Source of the DNA: an uncultured Actinomycetes bacterium
GTDB lineage: Bacteria > Actinomycetota > UBA4738 > HRBIN12
DNA: 64,000 nt
NCBI GenBank assembly: GCA_963704725.1
Contig: OY969934.1
Coordinates: 2,720,001 to 2,784,000 of the forward strand
Direction of reading: 5' to 3'
Of this stretch, positions 5,934 through 11,729 are shown one piece after another (within the stretch, counting starts at the first letter, position 1; every line of letters begins with the position of its first letter). Both the position numbers and the translations under genes were made by a program. The notes under the pieces are model-generated. The model saw only the letters and a list, made by a program, of their open reading frames with translations. It did no database searches and was not told the DNA's origin.

Positions 5934-6797
5934 TCAGGCGTCGTACTCGTAGAAGCCACGGCCGGTCTTGCGGCCGAGCTGGCCCGCGGTGACCATCCGC
6001 TTGAGGAGCGGCGGCGCGGCGAAGCGTGGCTCCTTGAACTCGTCGTACAGGACGTTCGCGATCTGCAGGCACGTGTCGAGCCCGATGAGGTCGGCCAGGC
6101 GGAGCGGCCCCAAGGGGTGGTTCAGGCCGAGGTGGATCGCCGTGTCGACGTCCTCGCGCGTCGCGAACCCGTCCTCCAGCATGCGGACGGCGTCGTTCAG
6201 GTAGGGGATGAGGAGGGTGTTCACGATGAACCCGGCCCGGTCCCGCGACAGCACCGTGGTCTTGCCGAGCGTCACGCAGTAGGCCCGGCCGAACTCCACG
6301 GTCTCGTCCGACGTCGTGATGGCCCTCACGATCTCGACGAGGCCCATCACCGGGACCGGGTTGAAGAAGTGCAGCCCGATCACGAGCTCCGGGCGCGTGG
6401 TCGCCGCGCCGAGGTCGGCGATCGGGATCGACGAGGTGTTCGATGACAGGATCACCTCGGATCGGGTGACCTCGTCGAGCCGGCGGAAGATCTCGAGCTT
6501 CGTGCCGGGATCCTCCGTGGCGGCCTCGATGACCAGGTCGACGTCGGCGAGCGCCTCGACGTCGGTCGTCCCGGTGATCCGGCCCAGGGCCTCGTCGCGA
6601 TCGGGCGACGCCAGCCGATCCCGTTCGACCGCGCGCAGCGTCGAGACCTCGATGCGTGATCGCCCCGACTCGACCAGCTCGTCGCTCGACTCCAGGTAGA
6701 TCACCTGCTGACCCGCTCGGGCGGCGACCTCCACGATGCCGGAGCCCATCAGCCCGCAGCCGACGACCCCGAGCGTGCGGACGTCCTCTCCCTTCAC
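5934..6797 (-). CDS. 3-hydroxybutyryl-CoA / 3-hydroxyacyl-CoA dehydrogenase
   Basis: GVVGCGLMGSGI, SNTSS, GLHFFNP, GFIVN, GRKTGRGFY. Confidence 0.93.
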   Translation of the reverse strand: MKGEDVRTLGVVGCGLMGSGIVEVAARAGQQVIYLESSDELVESGRSRIEVSTLRAVERDRLASPDRDEALGRITGTTDVEALADVDLVIEAATEDPGTKLEIFRRLDEVTRSEVILSSNTSSIPIADLGAATTRPELVIGLHFFNPVPVMGLVEIVRAITTSDETVEFGRAYCVTLGKTTVLSRDRAGFIVNTLLIPYLNDAVRMLEDGFATREDVDTAIHLGLNHPLGPLRLADLIGLDTCLQIANVLYDEFKEPRFAAPPLLKRMVTAGQLGRKTGRGFYEYDA

Positions 6798-6836
6798 GGG
6801 GCCCCCTCGGGTCGAACCGGCGTCAGGGGGCAAGCG

Positions 6837-6842
6837 TACAAT
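6837..6842 (+). promoter_or_regulatory. -10 element (TACAAT) of the putative copper operon
   Basis: Near-consensus -10 hexamer just upstream of in-frame TTG (6853) and GTG (6865) starts. Confidence 0.55.
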
Positions 6843-6864
6843 CACCGGAACCTTGGCCACGCCC

Positions 6865-7449
6865 GTGCCTGCGACGCCGCGCCTTCGAGGCCTCCCGGTG
6901 CTCGGTTTCGCCGTGGCCGGGGTCCTCCTCGGGCACACGCTCACGTATCTCCTGGCGATCCCGGACCCGCTCCACCGCGATCTCGTCCTGCGGACGACCG
7001 GACACGCGTACCTGCCCGCGGCGGGCGAGGCGGCGCTCGTGCTCCTGCTCGCCGGCGTCGCGGCGGTCGTCGTCCGGGCGTGGTCTCGTGGGCGGCGCGA
7101 GGGACGGGACTCGTTCGGGGGCCTGGCCGGGCTGCTGACGGCGGTCCAGGTCTCCGGGTTCCTGGGCCAAGAGGTCCTGGAGCGACTCGTCACGCGGTCG
7201 CCCCTCGGCGAGCTGGTGCACGATCACGTCCTTGCCATCGGTGTCCTGCTCCAGATCCCCCTGGCCCTGGCGGCCGCCGCGATGCTGCGTTGGCTGGCCC
7301 GCGCCTCCGCGGCCGTGGCGGAGACGACCGGCGGTCGCACCGCCACCCCCCGGCCGGCGCTGGTCCTGGCGGCCACCGCCCCGGCCGACGTCCCCCACGG
7401 CCGCGTCGCGGCCACGGCCCGGCGCGACCGGGCTCCTCCCTCCGCCTGA
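6865..7449 (+). CDS. His-containing polytopic membrane protein with C-terminal RAPP motif; candidate translational-arrest leader
   Basis: About 4 hydrophobic segments with GH..TY, H.D…GHAY, QE.LE; ends RRDRAPPSA*; alternative start TTG 6853. Confidence 0.7.
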   Translation: MPATPRLRGLPVLGFAVAGVLLGHTLTYLLAIPDPLHRDLVLRTTGHAYLPAAGEAALVLLLAGVAAVVVRAWSRGRREGRDSFGGLAGLLTAVQVSGFLGQEVLERLVTRSPLGELVHDHVLAIGVLLQIPLALAAAAMLRWLARASAAVAETTGGRTATPRPALVLAATAPADVPHGRVAATARRDRAPPSA

Positions 7450-7505
7450 CGCCTCCCCCAACCTGCGCGCGACGGACGTCGCGCTCGGAGACGCCTCAAG
7501 GAGGA
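7434..7505 (+). promoter_or_regulatory. Predicted SD-sequestering RNA structure
   Basis: TCCTCC 7434-7439 complements GGAGGA 7500-7505; CTCCG 7440-7444 complements CGGAG 7486-7490; inner hairpin GCGCGAC-GGAC-GTCGCGC 7467-7484. Confidence 0.55.
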
Positions 7506-7510
7506 CGAGC

Positions 7511-8197
7511 ATGATCGATCGCATCACCAGACTGATGGCTGCTGCCGCGCTCACGGTGGGGTTCGTGGGCCTGCTGGCCTCACCGGCGACTGCGCACGAG
7601 GAACGCGCGGTCGGCGACTTCGACCTCACCGTGGGGTTCGGCACGGAGCCGGCATACGTGGGCGAGCCGAACAGCGCCATCCTGCTGCTGTCGCGTGGCG
7701 GTCGGCCGGTCGTAGACCTGGGCGACACCCTGAGCGTCGACGTGTCGTTCGGCGACGCGGCCCCGTTCCCCTTGTCCGTCGAGCCCTTCTTCGAGGAGGG
7801 CGAGTTCGGAACGCCCGGCGACTATCGAGCCTGGTTCATCCCGACGAGCGCCGGACAGTACACGTTCCACTTCACGGGGACGATCGACGGCCAGGACGTC
7901 GACGAGACCTTCGTCTCCGGCCCCCAGACGTTCAACGACGTCGAGACCCCGACCGACGCCGAGTACCCCGATCAGCCGCCTTCGACGAGCGAGCTGGCCG
8001 ACCGGATCGACCGCGAGGTGCCGAGGCTCAACGATGCGATCGGCGGAGTGAAGAGCTCGGCCCTGGCCGCGGCGCAGAGCGCCTCCGACGATGCATCGGG
8101 CGCGCGCACCGTCGGCGTGATCGGAGTGGCGGTGGGAGGGCTCGGCTTGATCGCCGCCGCGGCGGCCATCGGCATGTCGCGCAGGGCGAGGGCGTGA
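7511..8197 (+). CDS. Secreted, C-terminally membrane-anchored protein with predicted N-terminal His (putative Cu-binding)
   Basis: AAGGAGG SD; signal peptide PATA|HEER; beta-rich domain (GQYTFHFTG); C-terminal TM plus RRARA. Confidence 0.75.
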
Positions 8198-8222
8198 GCC
8201 TCGTGTGTTCGAAGGGCTGAGG

Positions 8223-8771
8223 ATGCTCGCACACGCGGGAGGCGCGCCCGAGTTCGCCTCGTCGATGCTCGTCGCCGGCGGCGTGGTGGCCGGCTGGGTC
8301 GGCCTCAGCCGCCTGCGGGGTCGGGGCTTCCGGCGGCTGCCGCATGCGGCCGGCGTGACCCTTCTCGCGCTCGCGCCGGTGATCGTGGTGGCGTCCGTGG
8401 TGGTGCCCTCGCTCGTGTGGCCCATCCCGTCCGCGAGCGGACCGCGCCCGGCCTCGACCGCGTCGATCTCGTTCGTCGCGCCGAAGCCGGGGCAGAGCGT
8501 TACGGGCGACCTGCTCGATGTGCGGTTGGAGCTGGACGGCGGCAGGATCGTGGAGAGCTCCTCGACGACGGTCACCCCTGACACCGGGCACGTCCATGTC
8601 TTCCTCGATGGGCAGCTCCTGACGATGACCTACGGCCTCGAGCAGGAGGTGGGCGTGGCGGGGCTGACACCCGGCGTCCACCGGTTACGGGCCGAGTACG
8701 TCGCGGCCGACCACGCACCCTTCAACCCGGACGTGGTGGCGACGGTGACGTTCGTGAAGGCCGCGACGTGA
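8223..8771 (+). CDS. Membrane protein with His-motif Ig-like domain (DUF4399-like)
   Basis: MLAHAGG start, two TMs, [24 protein letters not shown]. Confidence 0.7.
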
Positions 8772-10726
8772 GGCGGGCCGTCGTCGTCTCGGTCGTGGCG
8801 CTCGCCCTGGTGGGCGCCTGGACCGCCTCCGCGGTCCGCGCCGGTGCGCACGCCGCCCTGAAGCGGAGCGAGCCGGCCAACGGCCAGCTGCTCGACCGTT
8901 CGCCCGCGGAGATCCGGCTCTCCTTCACCGAACCGCCCGACCTCTCGCTCACGACGATCGGAGTCGTGGACCGCACCGGAACGGCGGTACGGACCGGGCC
9001 GGTGGAGGTCGCCGGCGGCGACGACCAGACGATCCGGGTTGCGCTGCAAGACCTACCGGACGGCGTCTACACCGTGTCGTGGCGGACCGTCTCGGCGACC
9101 GACGGGCACCTCACCTCGGGGTCCTTCTCGTTCGGGGTGGGCGTCTCCGCGGCCGACGTGACGCCGGTCCGGCAGGAGGATCGAGCGCGAGCGACCTCGC
9201 CCACCGCCGCCGGGGTGGCCGGGCGATGGGCACTGTACGCGGGCCTGGCGGTCCTGTTCGGCGCGGCCGCGGGGGGGCTGTTCGCGTTCGGCCCGCTGAG
9301 CGTGCACCGACCGCGGCTCCTCGGTGGGGCGTGGACGCTCGCCGCGGCCGGCGTGGTCGTCACGACGCTGGACGAGCGCGCCACGGTCGGCGTGTCGCTC
9401 GGCACGCTGCTCCGATCGGATGCGGGGGCGTCGCTCGCCCGGCTCGCGGTCGCCGTGGCCCTCGTCGGCCTCGTCGCCCTGGCGGCGAGCCTGCGACCGG
9501 GGACCGCCACCCTCGTGCTCCTCGCCGGGACCACGGCCGCCGCCATGGCCGTCCGGGCGTTCGCCGGCCATGCCGGGCCGTCCGTGCTGGAAGGCACGCT
9601 TCAGGCGGCGCACTTTGCCGCCGTGGGGGCGTGGATCGGGGGGCTCGTCTGGCTGGTGCTCGCCGTGCGGCGAGGGGCGGAGCCGGAGCGGGTGCGACGG
9701 TACTCGACGATCGCCGCGACCGGCCTCGCCGTCATCGTGGTCACGGGGTACCTGCGAGCCACCAACGAGCTCGGGGGGTTCGGTTGGTGGCTGCGTGCGT
9801 TCGACAACAGCTACGGCGTGGCGCTGGTCGTCAAGCTCGCCATCGTCGCCGCGCTCGTCTCGCTCGGCGCGGTCAACCGGTACCGGAACGTGCGCCGCTA
9901 CGAGGCGCTCGGGGCTCGTCCTCTGCTCCGCACGGTGAGCGGCGAGCTCGTCCTGGCCGCCGGAGCGCTCGCCATGACCGGCCTGTTGACAGGGCTCGCC
10001 CCCCAGGGTGTGGTGGCATCGGCGGGCCCCCGTCCCCCCGCACCGCTCGTCGTCACGGGATCGGACTTCGCCACGACCACGAAGGTGCGCCTGCAGATCT
10101 CGCCCGGAACCGTCGGCCCGAACGCATTCGAGGCGAGGGTCACCGACTACGACACGGGCGAGCCGGTGGACGCCCGAAAGGTCACGCTGCAGTTCTCGCT
10201 CCCAGAGCGCCCCGAGGTCGACTCGACGCTCGAGCTCGAGCGCGGGACGAACGGGACGTGGCGGGCCGGGGGGACGTCGCTGTCGCTCGACGGCACCTGG
10301 GACGTCCGCGTCCTCGTGGAGGGCTCGGCCGGCTCGGTCGAGGTGCCCCTTCGCGTGACGCCGAAGTCCCCGCGGCAGGACATCGACGTGTCGCGGGCCG
10401 AGGGGCAGCCCGACATCTACACGATCCATCTGGAGGACGGCGTGACCGTGCAGGCGTACGTGGACCCCGGGACGCCCGGGCAGACGAACCAGGTGCATCT
10501 GACCGCCTTCGACGCGGGCGGCGCCGAGCTGCCCCTGCACCATGCCGTCCTGGACATCACCCCGGAGGACGGTCAACTCCTCGAGCCCGAGCTGATCCGG
10601 CTCTCGTCGGGACACTTCGTGGCCAACGTCGAGATCGCGTCAGGGACCTCGACGTTCGCGATCTCCATGCTGACCAGGGACGGTCGCGATCTCGCGGCGT
10701 CGTTCCAGGAGACCTTCGCAGGATGA
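8768..10726 (+). CDS. Copper transport protein, CopC-CopD fusion (YcnJ-like) with extra C-terminal beta domains
   Basis: AGA|[10 protein letters not shown]-terminal His, W..VSATDGH..SG (CopC); AGHA, H..AV..W.GGL, YG..L..KL (CopD); two YtkA/FixH-like domains. Confidence 0.88.
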
Positions 10727-11166
10727 AAGGAGCGATCGTGACGCGAACCCACACCGTGGCCCTGTCGATCGTCGCGGCGGTGACCCTGGCGGCCTGCGGG
10801 GGGAACGGGTCCGGCGACGCCGCGTCGCCGAGCTCGGGAACGTCCTCCCGTCCGAGCAGCCCCGCCCGGCTCTCGATCGAGGCGCCGAAGGCCGGCCACG
10901 TCGTGCACGGCTCGACCGTCCAGCTGCGCGTCGATCTGGAGGGCGCCCGCCTCGTCCCCGCCACCACGACCGACATCGTGCCCGACGAGGGGCACCTCCA
11001 CGTCATCCTGGACGACTCCCTGATCTCGATGACCGAGGGCCTGCACCAGTCGATCCCCAACCTCTCGCCGGGGATGCACCGGTTGACGGTCGAGTTCGTG
11101 GCCAGCGACCATGCCCCGTTCGACCCGAGGGTGGTCGCCGTGACCGAGTTCGAGGTGCAGCCGTGA
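10723..11166 (+). CDS. Lipoprotein with His-motif domain, paralog of 8223-8771
   Basis: Lipobox LAAC; GHLHVILDD, HRLTVEFVASDHAPF; start ATG 10723 or GTG 10738. Confidence 0.75.
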   Translation: MKGAIVTRTHTVALSIVAAVTLAACGGNGSGDAASPSSGTSSRPSSPARLSIEAPKAGHVVHGSTVQLRVDLEGARLVPATTTDIVPDEGHLHVILDDSLISMTEGLHQSIPNLSPGMHRLTVEFVASDHAPFDPRVVAVTEFEVQP

Positions 11167-11729
11167 GCGCCCGCGTCGGCGGCACCTCGCCGAACCCCGC
11201 CGTCGCGGCCCCGGCCGTCGTGCTGGCCGGGGCGGCGATCCTGCTCGCCCGGCCGTTCGTCGACGCGGCGCCCGGAGGCCGAACGGCGTTGTTCGCCACG
11301 GCGTACCTGGTGATCGGCGTGGCCGCCGTGTCCCTCCCCGGCCGGACGGCGATCGCCCCGGTCCTTCCGTGGGCGCCGGCCCTCGCGCTCGGCGTCCTCG
11401 CGGTGGCCGTCGTCGGCACGCTCGGCCCCCCCGTCCCGGTTCCGTGGGGACCGGCCGCCCTGCCCCTCGCGGGCCTGGCCGGGGTGGCGGAGGAGGCGCT
11501 GTTCCGGCGCGCGGCGTACGGATGGCTCGAGCGCTTCGGCGCCCCGGTCGCCGTGGTCGGATCGGCGGCCCTGTTCGCCGCCGTCCACATCCCCGCCTAT
11601 GGCCTGACCGTCCTTCCGGTCGACCTCGGGGCGGGGCTGCTGCTCTCGTGGCAGCGGTGGGCGTCGGGGAGCTGGACGGCTCCCGCGGCCACCCACGTCG
11701 TGGCGAACGCCCTGGCGGTGCTTCGATGA
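11163..11729 (+). CDS. CPBP (CAAX/Abi family) intramembrane protease
   Basis: EEALFR, FAAVH, H...N motifs; GTGA overlap. Confidence 0.85.
   Translation: MSARVGGTSPNPAVAAPAVVLAGAAILLARPFVDAAPGGRTALFATAYLVIGVAAVSLPGRTAIAPVLPWAPALALGVLAVAVVGTLGPPVPVPWGPAALPLAGLAGVAEEALFRRAAYGWLERFGAPVAVVGSAALFAAVHIPAYGLTVLPVDLGAGLLLSWQRWASGSWTAPAATHVVANALAVLR

What the first reader, a model, noticed from the sequence alone, without database searches (positions are those of the whole stretch)
6865..7449. Membrane leader protein ending in RAPP heads a copper operon: candidate Cu- or insertion-sensing ribosome-arrest regulator
Seen: the first gene of the operon encodes about four TMs with several His (GHTLTY, LHRD, TGHAY, VHDH), then an Ala/Pro/Thr/Arg-rich spacer and RAPP (7429-7440) two residues before the stop. 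Known: RAPP is the stalling motif of ApdA/ApdP arrest peptides and of Bordetella CruR (DUF2946), a uORF controlling a copper-import gene post-transcriptionally through a CxxC motif. This protein has no Cys. Inference: a His-based polytopic analogue of CruR, in which Cu binding or membrane insertion pulls on the nascent chain and relieves the stall, controlling the downstream Cu-uptake genes. I do not know of this architecture being characterised.
Basis: partly seen in the sequence, partly recalled or inferred. Interest (0 to 1): 0.88.

Follow-up and report, generated by a model that had tools for sequence, protein, structure and literature searches.

The report
Copper-operon leader with ribosome-stalling RAPP tail
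The first gene of this copper-uptake operon encodes a small four-helix membrane protein whose tail carries a strictly conserved ribosome-stalling motif (RAPP), so it is most likely a built-in translational switch of a kind described in 2022-2025, here as an unannotated family member whose copper sensing is still untested.

Summary
Window 6865-7449 (+) encodes a 194-aa, Cys-free protein with four predicted helices. It ends in RAPP (7429-7440), two residues before the stop.

R-[A/G]-P-P is invariant in 57 of 57 aligned homologues. It is present in all 25 related genomic loci, five of them only across a frameshift. It occurs in 138 of 146 distant cluster representatives, always 1-10 residues from the C-terminus. 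The Pro codons vary synonymously.

The poorly conserved linker keeps a fixed length: 42-44 residues from the end of helix 4 to the Arg in 157 of 184 sequences. H24, H47, E103 and E106 are (near-)invariant and lie on the outer face.

The gene heads a conserved operon: an N-terminal-His β-sandwich protein, a CopC-CopD-YtkA fusion (YcnJ architecture) and others. Distant members head DUF1775/YcnI, PCuAC-SCO1 or CopCD genes instead.

Its novelty claim is outdated. Fujiwara et al. (EMBO J 2025) described transmembrane RAPP/RGPP leaders upstream of YcnI/PCuAC/copper genes and showed arrest for Streptomyces examples. This scan also noted similar leaders on other DNA.

Predicted SD masking by the stall-site codons is clear in this window but only modest across the family.

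Verdict: a real, unannotated new member of a known kind.

The parts
6833..6843 (+). Conserved promoter-like element AGCGTACAATC (TACAAT at 6837-6842) upstream of the leader
   Evidence: the core is nearly invariant in the alignment of 14 upstream regions (13 of 14 carry it). Inference only. The sigma-70 consensus scan found nothing.
6865..7449 (+). Leader gene: 194-aa Cys-free four-helix membrane protein ending RAPPSA*
   Evidence: There is no Pfam or NCBIfam family. All database relatives are 'hypothetical protein'.
7429..7440 (+). RAPP codons (CGG GCT CCT CCC). The expected stall has Pro191 (7435-7437) in the P site and Pro192 (7438-7440) in the A site.
   Evidence: Motif invariance. The P/A-site assignment is by analogy with the CruR toeprint reported in PMC12992588 section 14. 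It was not tested here.
7432..7456 (+). C/U-rich stretch (GCUCCUCCCUCC, stop, CGCCUCC) predicted to pair with the downstream Shine-Dalgarno region
   Evidence: MFE structures. Its duplex with the SD region is the strongest of 28 windows in this locus (-18.2 against a mean of -14.2 kcal/mol).
7450..7510 (+). 61-nt intergenic region with a central GC-rich hairpin (about 7465-7486)
   Evidence: The intergenic length is 59-70 nt in all 26 close loci. A central hairpin is predicted in each, from different sequences.
7498..7505 (+). Shine-Dalgarno AAGGAGGA of the next gene (ATG at 7511)
7511..8197 (+). Gene B: signal peptide, mature N-terminal His29, β-sandwich, long helix, C-terminal TM anchor. YcnI-like design but not DUF1775.
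   Evidence: H29 and E46 are invariant in 40 sequences. AF2 pLDDT 75; only weak fold matches (best E 2.5e-3) to DUF4426, FetP/P19, PcoC and CrdA; no DUF1775 match.
8205..8771 (+). Gene C: membrane-anchored DUF4399/DUF6130-like protein, a paralogue of gene E
   Evidence: matches below the Pfam cut-offs; cross-hits between C and E.
8768..10726 (+). Gene D: CopC-CopD-YtkA/FixH fusion (YcnJ architecture)
   Evidence: CopC 1.3e-22, CopD 6.3e-13, FixH 3.2e-8, YtkA 1.7e-6. The YcnJ architecture is as described in PMC8424229.
10723..11166 (+). Gene E: DUF4399/DUF6130-like lipoprotein
11163..11729 (+). Gene F: CPBP (Rce1-like) intramembrane protease, last gene of the conserved block

Best explanation
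The gene is a RAPP-type ribosome-arrest leader of a copper-acquisition operon.

Proposed sequence of events:
1. The nascent chain inserts N-in/C-in as a four-helix bundle.
2. When the ribosome reaches Arg189-Ala-Pro-Pro192, peptide-bond formation stalls, with Pro191 in the P site and Pro192 in the A site. At that moment about 40 tail residues fill the exit tunnel and helix 4 is just leaving it.
3. The stalled ribosome covers the last codons and the stop. In this window those codons are the partner strand of the Shine-Dalgarno sequence of the next gene. While it stalls, the downstream genes can therefore be translated (YcnI-like protein, CopC-CopD-YtkA and others). Alternatively, or in addition, the stall protects the transcript from premature termination, as in CruR.
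4. The stall is released by a pull on the chain when helices 3-4 integrate and pack against helices 1-2.
5. I infer that this step depends on metal occupancy of the outward-facing H24/H47/E103/E106 (Y28, Y49) cluster, which would neutralise the charges of the marginally hydrophobic helix 3.
6. Expected logic: low copper gives a long stall and the operon ON. Copper bound gives release and the operon OFF.

Shown here:
- the anatomy and the conservation of the motif;
- the fixed spacing of the motif from helix 4;
- the residue conservation;
- the linkage to copper genes.

Taken from papers: RAPP/RGPP at the C-terminus of such proteins stalls ribosomes.

Inferred: stalling of this protein, SD unmasking, copper as the signal, and the sign of the regulation.
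For: **Motif**
- R-x-P-P is invariant in 57 of 57 homologues.
- All 25 genome loci have R[AG]PP plus 2-4 residues plus stop. Five of them have it only in another frame after a frameshift.
- 138 of 146 further cluster representatives end in R[AGS]PP within 10 residues of the end: RGPP 83, RAPP 48, RSPP 7.
- Of 16 remote loci, 15 have R[AG]PP and 1 has RPPP.
- The Pro codons differ synonymously between loci, so selection acts on the peptide.

**Spacing**
- R146 to R189 is 42-44 residues in 157 of 184 sequences, range 40-50. The linker sequence itself is not conserved.
- CruR shows the same kind of constraint: 45 residues, within one or two.

**Published behaviour of the motif**
- Seven of seven S. 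lividans C-terminal RAPP/RGPP proteins arrested in B. subtilis- and S. lividans-ribosome PURE systems and in vivo.
- RAPP and RGPP work in different N-terminal contexts (PMC12992588 sections 8 and 14).

**Rarity**
- Crude observed/expected in this genome is 0.53 for RAPP and 0.45 for RGPP.
- Only 3 coding-like ORFs have it near the C-terminus.

**Copper link across unlike operons**
- The leader is followed by gene B and CopCD in 24 of 25 close loci.
- It is followed by gene B in 27 of 29 loci from other families, or 25 of 27 without the two unpublished genomes.
- Remote members precede DUF1775/YcnI (L059, L065), PCuAC-SCO1 (L025, L064) or CopCD (L070, L074).

**Sensor-like site**
- H24 and H47 are invariant. 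Y28, Y49, Q95, E103, E106 and Q130 are near-invariant in 150-205 sequences.
- All lie in the outer half of the confident model.
- The charge distribution fits N-in/C-in.

**RNA**
- The SD is predicted paired with the stall-site codons in the window.
- Over 50 loci the mean SD unpaired probability is 0.16 free, 0.18 with a ribosome 27 nt upstream, 0.31 stalled and 0.37 terminating.
- Stalled exceeds the upstream control by more than 0.1 in 25 of 50 loci.
- The operon block (leader to gene F) holds no recognisable transcription-factor gene; genes B and C have no assigned family.
Against: - No experiment of any kind exists for this protein or family. Stalling, copper binding and regulation are all unobserved.
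- The RNA evidence is modest. The stall-site window is the best SD partner in only 6 of 50 loci and among the best three in 14 of 50.
- The SD becomes at least 0.5 unpaired in only 11 of 50 loci. In 9 of 50 loci the stalled state is less open than the control.
- The fold of the window region is not more stable than shuffles (z = -0.41). RNAalifold found no consensus structure on the MAFFT alignment. The loci are kin, so the Wilcoxon p-values overstate.
- In many loci the C-rich partner lies just 3' of the stop, at the edge of or outside a ribosome stalled at RAPP.
- A His2/Glu2/Tyr set is not a classical Cu(I) site, and no Met or Cys is conserved here.
- The protein is a confidently folded bundle (pLDDT about 95 in the helices), so it may have a job of its own.
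- My genome-wide RAPP counts use a crude GC3-based ORF filter that even missed the leader itself.
Confidence: 0.6

Rival explanations
1. The protein is mainly a stable working subunit of the copper-uptake machinery, for example a membrane metal-binding partner of the YcnI-like protein and CopCD. The RAPP pause would serve co-translational folding, assembly, or fixed-ratio translational coupling with the next gene. It would not be a copper-dependent switch.
For: The four-helix bundle is very confident, with invariant polar residues inside it. The family is large: 2822 cluster representatives at E <= 1e-3. It always sits with the structural copper genes. A terminating ribosome is predicted to open the SD at least as well as a stalled one (0.37 against 0.31), as in ordinary coupling.
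Against: RAPP/RGPP are among the most avoided tetrapeptides because they arrest robustly and resist EF-P (PMC12992588 abstract and section 12). A mere pause would not need an invariant motif at a fixed 42-44-residue distance from helix 4. CruR shows that such a tail can be a copper-responsive switch.
Confidence: 0.2
2. It is an arrest leader that monitors membrane-insertion capacity (Sec/YidC), like MifM, ApdA or ApdP. It would adjust synthesis of the membrane and secreted proteins downstream, with copper playing no part in release.
For: It has four membrane helices. About 43 residues separate helix 4 from the stall site. From memory of published force profiles, that distance is about where helix integration pulls on the chain. 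Known RAPP leaders are insertion monitors (abstracts of PMC7897499 and PMC10987492 in the listing).
Against: No Sec or YidC gene follows it in any locus examined. The downstream genes are copper proteins of at least four different kinds. The invariant His/Glu/Tyr residues on the outer face are unexplained by pure insertion monitoring.
Confidence: 0.08
3. The C-terminal R-[A/G]-P-P is conserved for a post-translational reason. It could be a recognition or processing site, for instance for the CPBP protease encoded at the end of the operon, or a protein-protein contact. It would not stall ribosomes to any useful extent.
For: A CPBP/Rce1-like protease is encoded in the operon in the close loci. 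Relatives of that protease family cut near C-termini; this is recalled, not tested. The tail is disordered.
Against: All seven tested actinobacterial C-terminal RAPP/RGPP proteins stalled. The motif is kept in remote members whose operons differ. Whether a CPBP gene is present there was not examined. The allowed variants (A, G, rarely S; one RPPP) match those reported as arrest-competent or partly permissive.
Confidence: 0.07

Closest known systems
Transmembrane RAPP/RGPP arrest peptides upstream of YcnI-family, PCu(A)C and copper-resistance genes in Actinomycetota, e.g. S. lividans SLIV_18480 (Fujiwara et al., EMBO J 2025, PMC12992588; sections 8, 12-14 and passages of 15 read)
   Same: A small protein (<300 aa) with four TM segments and conserved histidines. 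RAPP/RGPP lies a few residues from the C-terminus. The downstream genes run in the same direction and are copper-related. It occurs in Actinomycetota. Remote members of the present family sit directly upstream of DUF1775/YcnI and PCuAC genes, the classes that paper lists.
   Different: That protein is described with three His, one Met and two Cys. The window protein has no Cys and its only Met is M140. Position 102 is Met in 67 of 205 relatives. The gene after the window's leader is not a DUF1775 protein. The family was not found in the larger-genome families sampled: f18 0 of 28 and f16 2 of 31.
CruR (Bp2923, DUF2946/PF11162) of Bordetella pertussis (Roy et al., mBio 2022, PMC9426467; abstract and passages read)
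   Same: It is the first gene of a copper-related operon. RAPP lies three residues from the C-terminus. The distance from the putative metal site to RAPP is conserved (45 residues there; 42-44 from the helix-4 end here). The model is the same: metal perceived by the nascent chain relieves the arrest.
   Different: CruR is an exported, poorly structured protein with a signal peptide and a CXXC site. This one is a four-helix membrane protein without Cys and does not match PF11162. CruR acts through Rho-dependent termination in a 162-bp intergenic region. Here the intergenic region is 61 nt and looks like an SD-masking stem. CruR is proposed to sense cytoplasmic Cu. The conserved residues here face outward.
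ApdA/ApdP and the classical monitoring substrates SecM, MifM, VemP (PMC7897499, PMC10951233, PMC10987492; search listing and abstract starts only)
   Same: The RAPP core. The arrest site lies near the C-terminus of a leader with a localisation signal. Downstream expression is controlled by a stalled ribosome. Release is by a pulling force.
   Different: Those leaders precede Sec/YidC-pathway genes and sense the activity of that machinery. Here the downstream genes are copper-handling proteins, and the N-terminal part is a conserved folded bundle.

Membership tests
RAPP/RGPP-type ribosome arrest peptides | R-A/G-P-P core | tested here: met
   RAPP at residues 189-192. Invariant R-x-P-P in 57 of 57 homologues. 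138 of 146 representatives have it.
RAPP/RGPP-type ribosome arrest peptides | Motif near the C-terminus of a small secreted or membrane protein, with a co-directional downstream gene | tested here: met
   The protein is 194 aa and the motif lies 2 residues from the end. It has four helices. The next gene starts 61 nt downstream on the same strand.
RAPP/RGPP-type ribosome arrest peptides | Arg-dependent accumulation of peptidyl-tRNA, or a toeprint with the two Pro codons in the P and A sites | not testable with these tools
   This needs in vitro translation. Only the published behaviour of other proteins is available.
RAPP/RGPP-type ribosome arrest peptides | The stall controls expression of the downstream gene | tested here: inconclusive
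   Predicted SD masking is clear in the window. Across 50 loci it is modest, and no consensus structure was found.
CruR / DUF2946 (PF11162) | Match to the DUF2946 profile | tested here: not met
   No Pfam family at E <= 0.01. At E <= 10 only DUF4328 appears, at 0.027.
CruR / DUF2946 (PF11162) | Conserved CXXC copper-binding motif | tested here: not met
   The protein has no cysteine.
SLIV_18480-type four-TM metal-linked arrest leaders (Fujiwara 2025) | Four TM segments, conserved His, C-terminal RAPP/RGPP, metal-related downstream gene | tested here: met
   judged against the paper's verbal description.
SLIV_18480-type four-TM metal-linked arrest leaders (Fujiwara 2025) | Sequence homology to SLIV_18480 | not testable with these tools
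   The sequence was not obtainable and the paper's supplements are closed. None of the matching genomes in the 401-genome sample exceeded about 6.6 Mb.
YcnI / DUF1775 (for the downstream gene 7511-8197) | Match to PF07987 | tested here: not met
   No hit. The genome-wide search gives only a 13.6-bit match elsewhere.
YcnI / DUF1775 (for the downstream gene 7511-8197) | Signal peptide, N-terminal His plus a Glu about 20 residues later, β-sandwich, C-terminal TM anchor | tested here: met
   H29 follows A-x-A. H29 and E46 are invariant in 40 sequences. Strands run 29-135 and helix 202-227. The YcnI features are as in PMC8424229. This is a likeness of design, not membership.
YcnJ-type CopC-CopD-YtkA fusion (gene 8768-10726) | CopC, CopD and YtkA domains in one protein | tested here: met

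The most novel reading that the evidence does not exclude
The leader is a transmembrane signal transducer that works only as a nascent chain. Extracytoplasmic Cu(II) binds the outward-facing His24/His47/Glu103/Glu106 site and neutralises the marginally hydrophobic helix 3. That allows the helix 3-4 hairpin to integrate. The resulting pull on the 43-residue tether releases the RAPP-arrested ribosome in the cytoplasm. Metal-gated membrane insertion would thus report outside copper directly to translation of the uptake genes, without any transcription factor.
Probability: 0.25. Interest if true: 0.8.

Novelty: new member of a known kind. Interest (0 to 1): 0.45.

Why it matters
It adds a large, wholly unannotated family to the recently recognised class of copper-linked RAPP/RGPP arrest leaders. 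The family has 2822 cluster representatives at E <= 1e-3 and occurs in 90-100 of 401 sampled Actinomycetota genomes.

It gives that class a well-defined test object:
- a confident four-helix model;
- a short list of invariant outward-facing residues;
- a fixed tether length;
- a compact 61-nt intergenic switch.

The open question in the field is how a metal releases an arrested ribosome, and whether the signal can come from outside the membrane. That question could be addressed directly with this protein.

For annotation, these genes should not be called 'hypothetical protein' or given a shortened start (the stored call for this genome is 183 aa).

Tried and rejected
- **Pfam and NCBIfam on the leader:** no family.
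- **Foldseek of the leader model against the PDB:** nothing at E <= 0.001. The best hit has E 0.8 and TM <= 0.3, a generic helical bundle.
- **ESM Atlas:** only unnamed Actinomycetota clusters. The nearest named cluster is DUF6412 at 0.75, which is not meaningful.
- **Profile of gene B against PDB sequences:** no relevant hit.
- **Foldseek of the gene B model:** only weak matches (E 2.5e-3 to 4e-2) to Ig-like periplasmic metal proteins. YcnI is not among the top 50 shown.
- **RNAalifold on a MAFFT alignment of 24 intergenic regions:** no consensus pairs. The alignment is poor because the loci use different registers.
- **Consensus promoter/terminator scan of 6600-7700:** none found.
- **Sequencing runs:** no RNA holder listed.
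- **Earlier notes by sequence, and by place in this genome:** nothing.
- **Second homologue search with the 150-sequence profile:** again 78 hits, all 'hypothetical protein' or unnamed.
- **Chance occurrence, and a wrong-frame ORF:** rejected because of the conservation.
Full report
**1. What is in the sequence**

On the + strand an ORF runs from GTG 6865 to the stop at 7447-7449. It encodes 194 residues ending ...RRDRAPPSA.

The longer reading from ATG 6736 would overlap the divergently transcribed 3-hydroxyacyl-CoA dehydrogenase gene (5934-6803, minus strand). Homologues begin at the position of 6865 with a conserved PR(L/V)RGLP stretch. The stored gene call for this genome is 183 aa and is probably too short.

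The protein has no cysteine. It has six histidines, at 24, 37, 47, 119, 121 and 178.

An AlphaFold2 model built on 150 family sequences is confident (pLDDT 88.7, pTM 0.78):
- helices at 10-31, 50-74, 84-109 and 122-156;
- short helices in the two outer loops;
- an unstructured tail, 157-194.

Hydropathy finds three strongly hydrophobic stretches. Helix 3 is only marginally hydrophobic; it carries Q95, E103, E106 and R107. The distribution of Arg fits an N-in/C-in topology. No dedicated TM predictor was available.

**2. Is the RAPP tail more than chance?**

Yes, on several independent counts.

- The 5.8-billion-protein search gave 78 homologues. I aligned 57 of them, and R189, P191 and P192 are invariant in all 57. 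The 40 residues before the motif are poorly conserved.
- A scan of species-representative genomes gave 25 loci, all uncultured Actinomycetes/Actinomycetota assemblies.
- Twenty of those loci have R[AG]PP plus 2-4 residues plus stop in frame. The other five (L007, L016, L017, L020, L022) carry a frameshift inside the gene and have the same tail in the shifted frame. Neighbouring genes are also split in several of these assemblies, so I read the frameshifts as assembly errors.
- The two Pro codons vary synonymously (CCT, CCG, CCA, CCC). The peptide is what is kept, not the RNA.
- A profile search of 1.84 billion cluster representatives found 2822 proteins at E <= 1e-3 and 1570 at E <= 1e-10.
- Of the 146 best representatives not seen before, 138 end in R[AGS]PP within 10 residues of the C-terminus: RGPP 83, RAPP 48, RSPP 7. 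The 8 exceptions have aberrant lengths or look truncated or frameshifted.
- Sixteen remote genomic members (profile E 1e-8 to 1e-26) were fetched. Fifteen have R[AG]PP and one has RPPP, 1-7 residues from the stop.
- In this genome a crude coding-ORF set gives observed/expected 0.53 for RAPP and 0.45 for RGPP. The filter is rough: it used stop-to-stop ORFs and even missed the leader.
- A second screen examined 9927 ORFs with high GC3. Ten have R[AG]PP within 16 residues of the stop, and only three of those show a coding-like GC1>GC2 pattern. The leader is one of the three.

**3. A fixed tether and an outward-facing conserved cluster**

I aligned 205 sequences, selected from 224 for a length of 170-240 aa and for having the terminal motif. 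The motif's invariance in this set is therefore by construction.

In that set the distance from R146 (the cytoplasmic end of helix 4) to the motif's Arg is 42-44 residues in 157 of the 184 sequences that have R146. The range is 40-50.

Residue conservation:
- H24, G46, H47 and G126 are invariant.
- Y28, Y49, Q95, F99, E103, E106, R107 and Q130 are kept in at least about 97%.
H37, H119 and H121 are kept in a quarter to a half of members.
- Position 102 is Gln in 87, Met in 67 and Leu in 33 of the 205.

By their place in the modelled helices, all the invariant polar residues lie in the outer half of the bundle or at its outer rim. Whether they converge on one site I could not measure, because no coordinates were available.

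The model has no relative in the PDB (best Foldseek E 0.8). There is no Pfam or NCBIfam family. Every database relative is unnamed or called 'hypothetical protein'.

**4. Genomic context**

Downstream on the same strand lie five genes:
- gene B (7511-8197);
- gene C (8205-8771), weakly DUF4399/DUF6130-like;
- gene D (8768-10726), CopC + CopD + YtkA/FixH;
- gene E (10723-11166), a paralogue of C;
- gene F (11163-11729), a CPBP/Rce1-like protease.

Gene D has the architecture of B. subtilis YcnJ as described in PMC8424229.

Gene B has a signal peptide ending A-x-A, then His29. H29 and E46 are invariant in 40 sequences. It has a β-sandwich at 29-135, a long helix and a C-terminal TM anchor (pLDDT 75). 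That is the design of YcnI: N-terminal His, Glu 23 residues later, C-terminal TM. But gene B does not match DUF1775. Its model gives only weak fold matches, to DUF4426, FetP/P19, PcoC and CrdA (E 2.5e-3 to 4e-2). I call it YcnI-like in design, not a member.

How far the arrangement is conserved:
- The order leader-B-C-D-E-F holds in 22 of the 25 close loci. L011 and L024 keep the same order as far as their DNA reaches, so 24 of 25 agree.
- In 29 loci from other families of the phylum the leader is followed by B in 27, usually then by CopCD. The count is 25 of 27 without L027 and L054, which come from unpublished genomes. In L042 CopCD follows directly, and L049 ends after the leader.
- Remote members head different copper operons: canonical DUF1775/YcnI (L059 1.2e-39, L065 5.5e-23), PCu(A)C then SCO1/SenC (L064, and L025 followed by a CopC protein), or CopC-CopD (L070, L074).
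- Four of the ten first downstream ORFs tested had no family above the cut-off.
- The family was found in 90 of 401 (profile A1, E <= 1e-5) and in 100 of 401 (profile A3, E <= 0.01) sampled Actinomycetota genomes. It is concentrated in a handful of families and nearly absent from others: f18 0 of 28, f16 2 of 31. These tallies include nine unpublished genomes.

The association with copper genes of unlike kinds is the strongest computational argument that the leader's business is copper.

**5. The intergenic switch**

The distance from the leader's stop to the next start is 61 nt here, and 59-70 nt in all 26 close loci. Over 50 loci it is mostly 53-82 nt.

In the window the minimum-energy fold pairs GCUC-CUCC-CUCC (the Ala-Pro-Pro-Ser codons, 7432-7443) and the C-rich run after the stop with the GGAGGA-CGAGC of gene B's ribosome-binding site. 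A GC-rich hairpin sits on top. Among 28 windows of the leader, the stall-site window is the best partner of the SD region (-18.2 kcal/mol against a mean of -14.2).

Each close locus shows the same layout with different sequences and registers.

Quantitatively the support is only moderate. I analysed 50 loci. Left out were L027 and L054 (unpublished), L026 (the window's own copy), and L032, L040 and L049, where my motif or SD finder failed.

| State of the mRNA | Mean predicted unpaired probability of the SD |
|---|---|
| Free | 0.16 |
| Ribosome 27 nt upstream of the stall site | 0.18 |
| Ribosome stalled at RAPP | 0.31 |
| Ribosome at the stop codon | 0.37 |

- The stalled state is more open than the upstream control by more than 0.1 in 25 of 50 loci, and less open in 9.
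- The SD reaches at least 0.5 unpaired in 11 loci.
- The stall-site window is the best SD partner in 6 of 50 loci and in the top three in 14 of 50.
- The loci are related, so the Wilcoxon p-values (2e-4 and 2e-3) overstate.
- The local fold is not more stable than shuffles (z = -0.41), and RNAalifold found no consensus.

SD unmasking is therefore my preferred coupling. Protection from Rho, as in CruR, or plain termination-reinitiation coupling are not excluded.

**6. What is known**

- Roy et al. 2022 (PMC9426467; abstract and passages). CruR is a DUF2946 protein with a signal peptide, a CXXC motif and RAPP three residues from its end, with 45 residues between the two motifs. Mutating RAPP abolishes expression of the downstream TonB-dependent transporter. 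Mutating CXXC makes it copper-blind. The output is Rho-dependent termination in a 162-bp intergenic region.
- Fujiwara et al. 2025 (PMC12992588; sections 8, 12, 13 and 14 read whole, passages of the Discussion).
  - RAPP and RGPP are the most versatile and EF-P-resistant cores.
  - They are among the most avoided tetrapeptides. RSPP is partly permissive.
  - They are enriched near the C-terminus of small secreted or membrane proteins.
  - Such ORFs lie upstream of TonB receptors, YcnI-family proteins, PCu(A)C, PepSY, DsbA and thioredoxin genes. Those before YcnI genes mostly have TM segments.
[quoted passage not shown] One of them is SLIV_18480: four TM segments, three conserved His and one Met predicted as a copper site, and a metal-related downstream gene.
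  - The authors propose these proteins as metal sensors.
- A full-text search for arrest peptide / copper / RGPP / YcnI / CopD / translation arrest from 2021 on found no paper more specific than these (the first search was).
- This scan's own index holds three earlier notes of similar copper-operon leaders on other DNA. By its description, e1-5066010 is a His-rich four-helix RGPP leader. A look-up by sequence found no look-alike of this protein.

**7. Reading**

The anatomy meets every sequence-level criterion of a RAPP/RGPP arrest leader. Its remote members sit in exactly the gene neighbourhoods that Fujiwara et al. listed. It is not a CruR/DUF2946 member: there is no profile match and no Cys. 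Homology to SLIV_18480 is possible, since Met at position 102 is common in the family, but I could not test it.

I therefore file it as a new, unannotated member of a known kind. The mechanism I commit to is this:
- The ribosome stalls with Pro191 in the P site and Pro192 in the A site.
- The stalled ribosome keeps gene B's ribosome-binding site open.
- The stall is released by the pull of helix 3-4 integration and packing.
- Copper occupancy of the outward-facing His/Glu/Tyr cluster favours that step.
- The operon is therefore ON when copper is scarce.

The ON-when-scarce logic matches the copper-dependent repression of ycnKJI mentioned in PMC8424229 and the logic of CruR.

Only the anatomy and the conservation are shown here. 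The stall rests on published behaviour of the motif. The copper step and the sign of the regulation are inference. That helix integration pulls at a tether of about 40-45 residues is recalled from the force-profile literature and was not checked here.

**8. Limits**

- There are no expression data for this locus. No RNA run is listed.
- There are no structure coordinates.
- The paper's supplements are closed. They may list this very family, or the SLIV_18480 alignment.
- The family and genus labels of the sampled genomes are coded, so I cannot name the lineages.

Noticed in passing
window 6822-6843: An almost invariant AGCGTACAATC (with GTCAGG 5 nt upstream) lies before the leader in 13 of 14 close loci. 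It is probably the operon's -10 region or an operator. Most relatives then have an AGGAGA ribosome-binding site. The window and L013 lack that segment, which leaves about 22 nt between TACAAT and the GTG start.
   Followed up: partly
window 8205-8771 and 10723-11166: Genes C and E are paralogues (about 47% identity over about 100 residues) of DUF4399/DUF6130-like proteins with a D-x-GH-[VL]-H motif. One has an N-terminal membrane segment and the other a lipoprotein-like start. Both are conserved in the operon.
   Followed up: partly
window 11163-11729: A CPBP/Rce1-like intramembrane protease closes the conserved block in 22 of 25 close loci. Its substrate is unknown. The leader's C-terminal tail or gene B's anchor are conceivable targets.
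   Followed up: no
G000:C1:747204-748715 (-) (L057:1505-3007) and G000:C1:1174330-1175916 (-) (L058:1531-3021): These are the only other coding-like ORFs in this genome with RAPP close to the C-terminus (10 residues before the stop). One is a 500-aa amidase, followed on the same strand by an ECF-type sigma factor gene. The other is a 496-aa protein without a Pfam family. Whether their tails stall ribosomes is open.
   Followed up: partly
L025:4908-7976 and L064:233-1940: Remote members of the leader family (RGPP tails) head PCu(A)C - SCO1/SenC (- CopC) operons. These are the copper-delivery route to cytochrome oxidase rather than a YcnI/YcnJ-type uptake set.
   Followed up: yes
L065 (G206:C69:2300-6800), leader tail: One remote member ends in RPPP instead of R[AG]PP and precedes a DUF1775/YcnI gene. 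It links this family to the RPPP leaders that earlier notes of this scan described.
   Followed up: partly
L007, L016, L017, L020, L022 (leader) and L016, L017, L018, L020 (genes B or D): Several assemblies carry frameshifts in the leader and in neighbouring genes. The RAPP tail reappears in the shifted frame, so these look like assembly errors rather than pseudogenes.
   Followed up: partly
window 6865 versus the stored gene call (P0002, 183 aa): The database gene call for this genome starts 11 codons too late, judged by the conserved N-terminal PR(L/V)RGLP of the homologues.
   Followed up: partly
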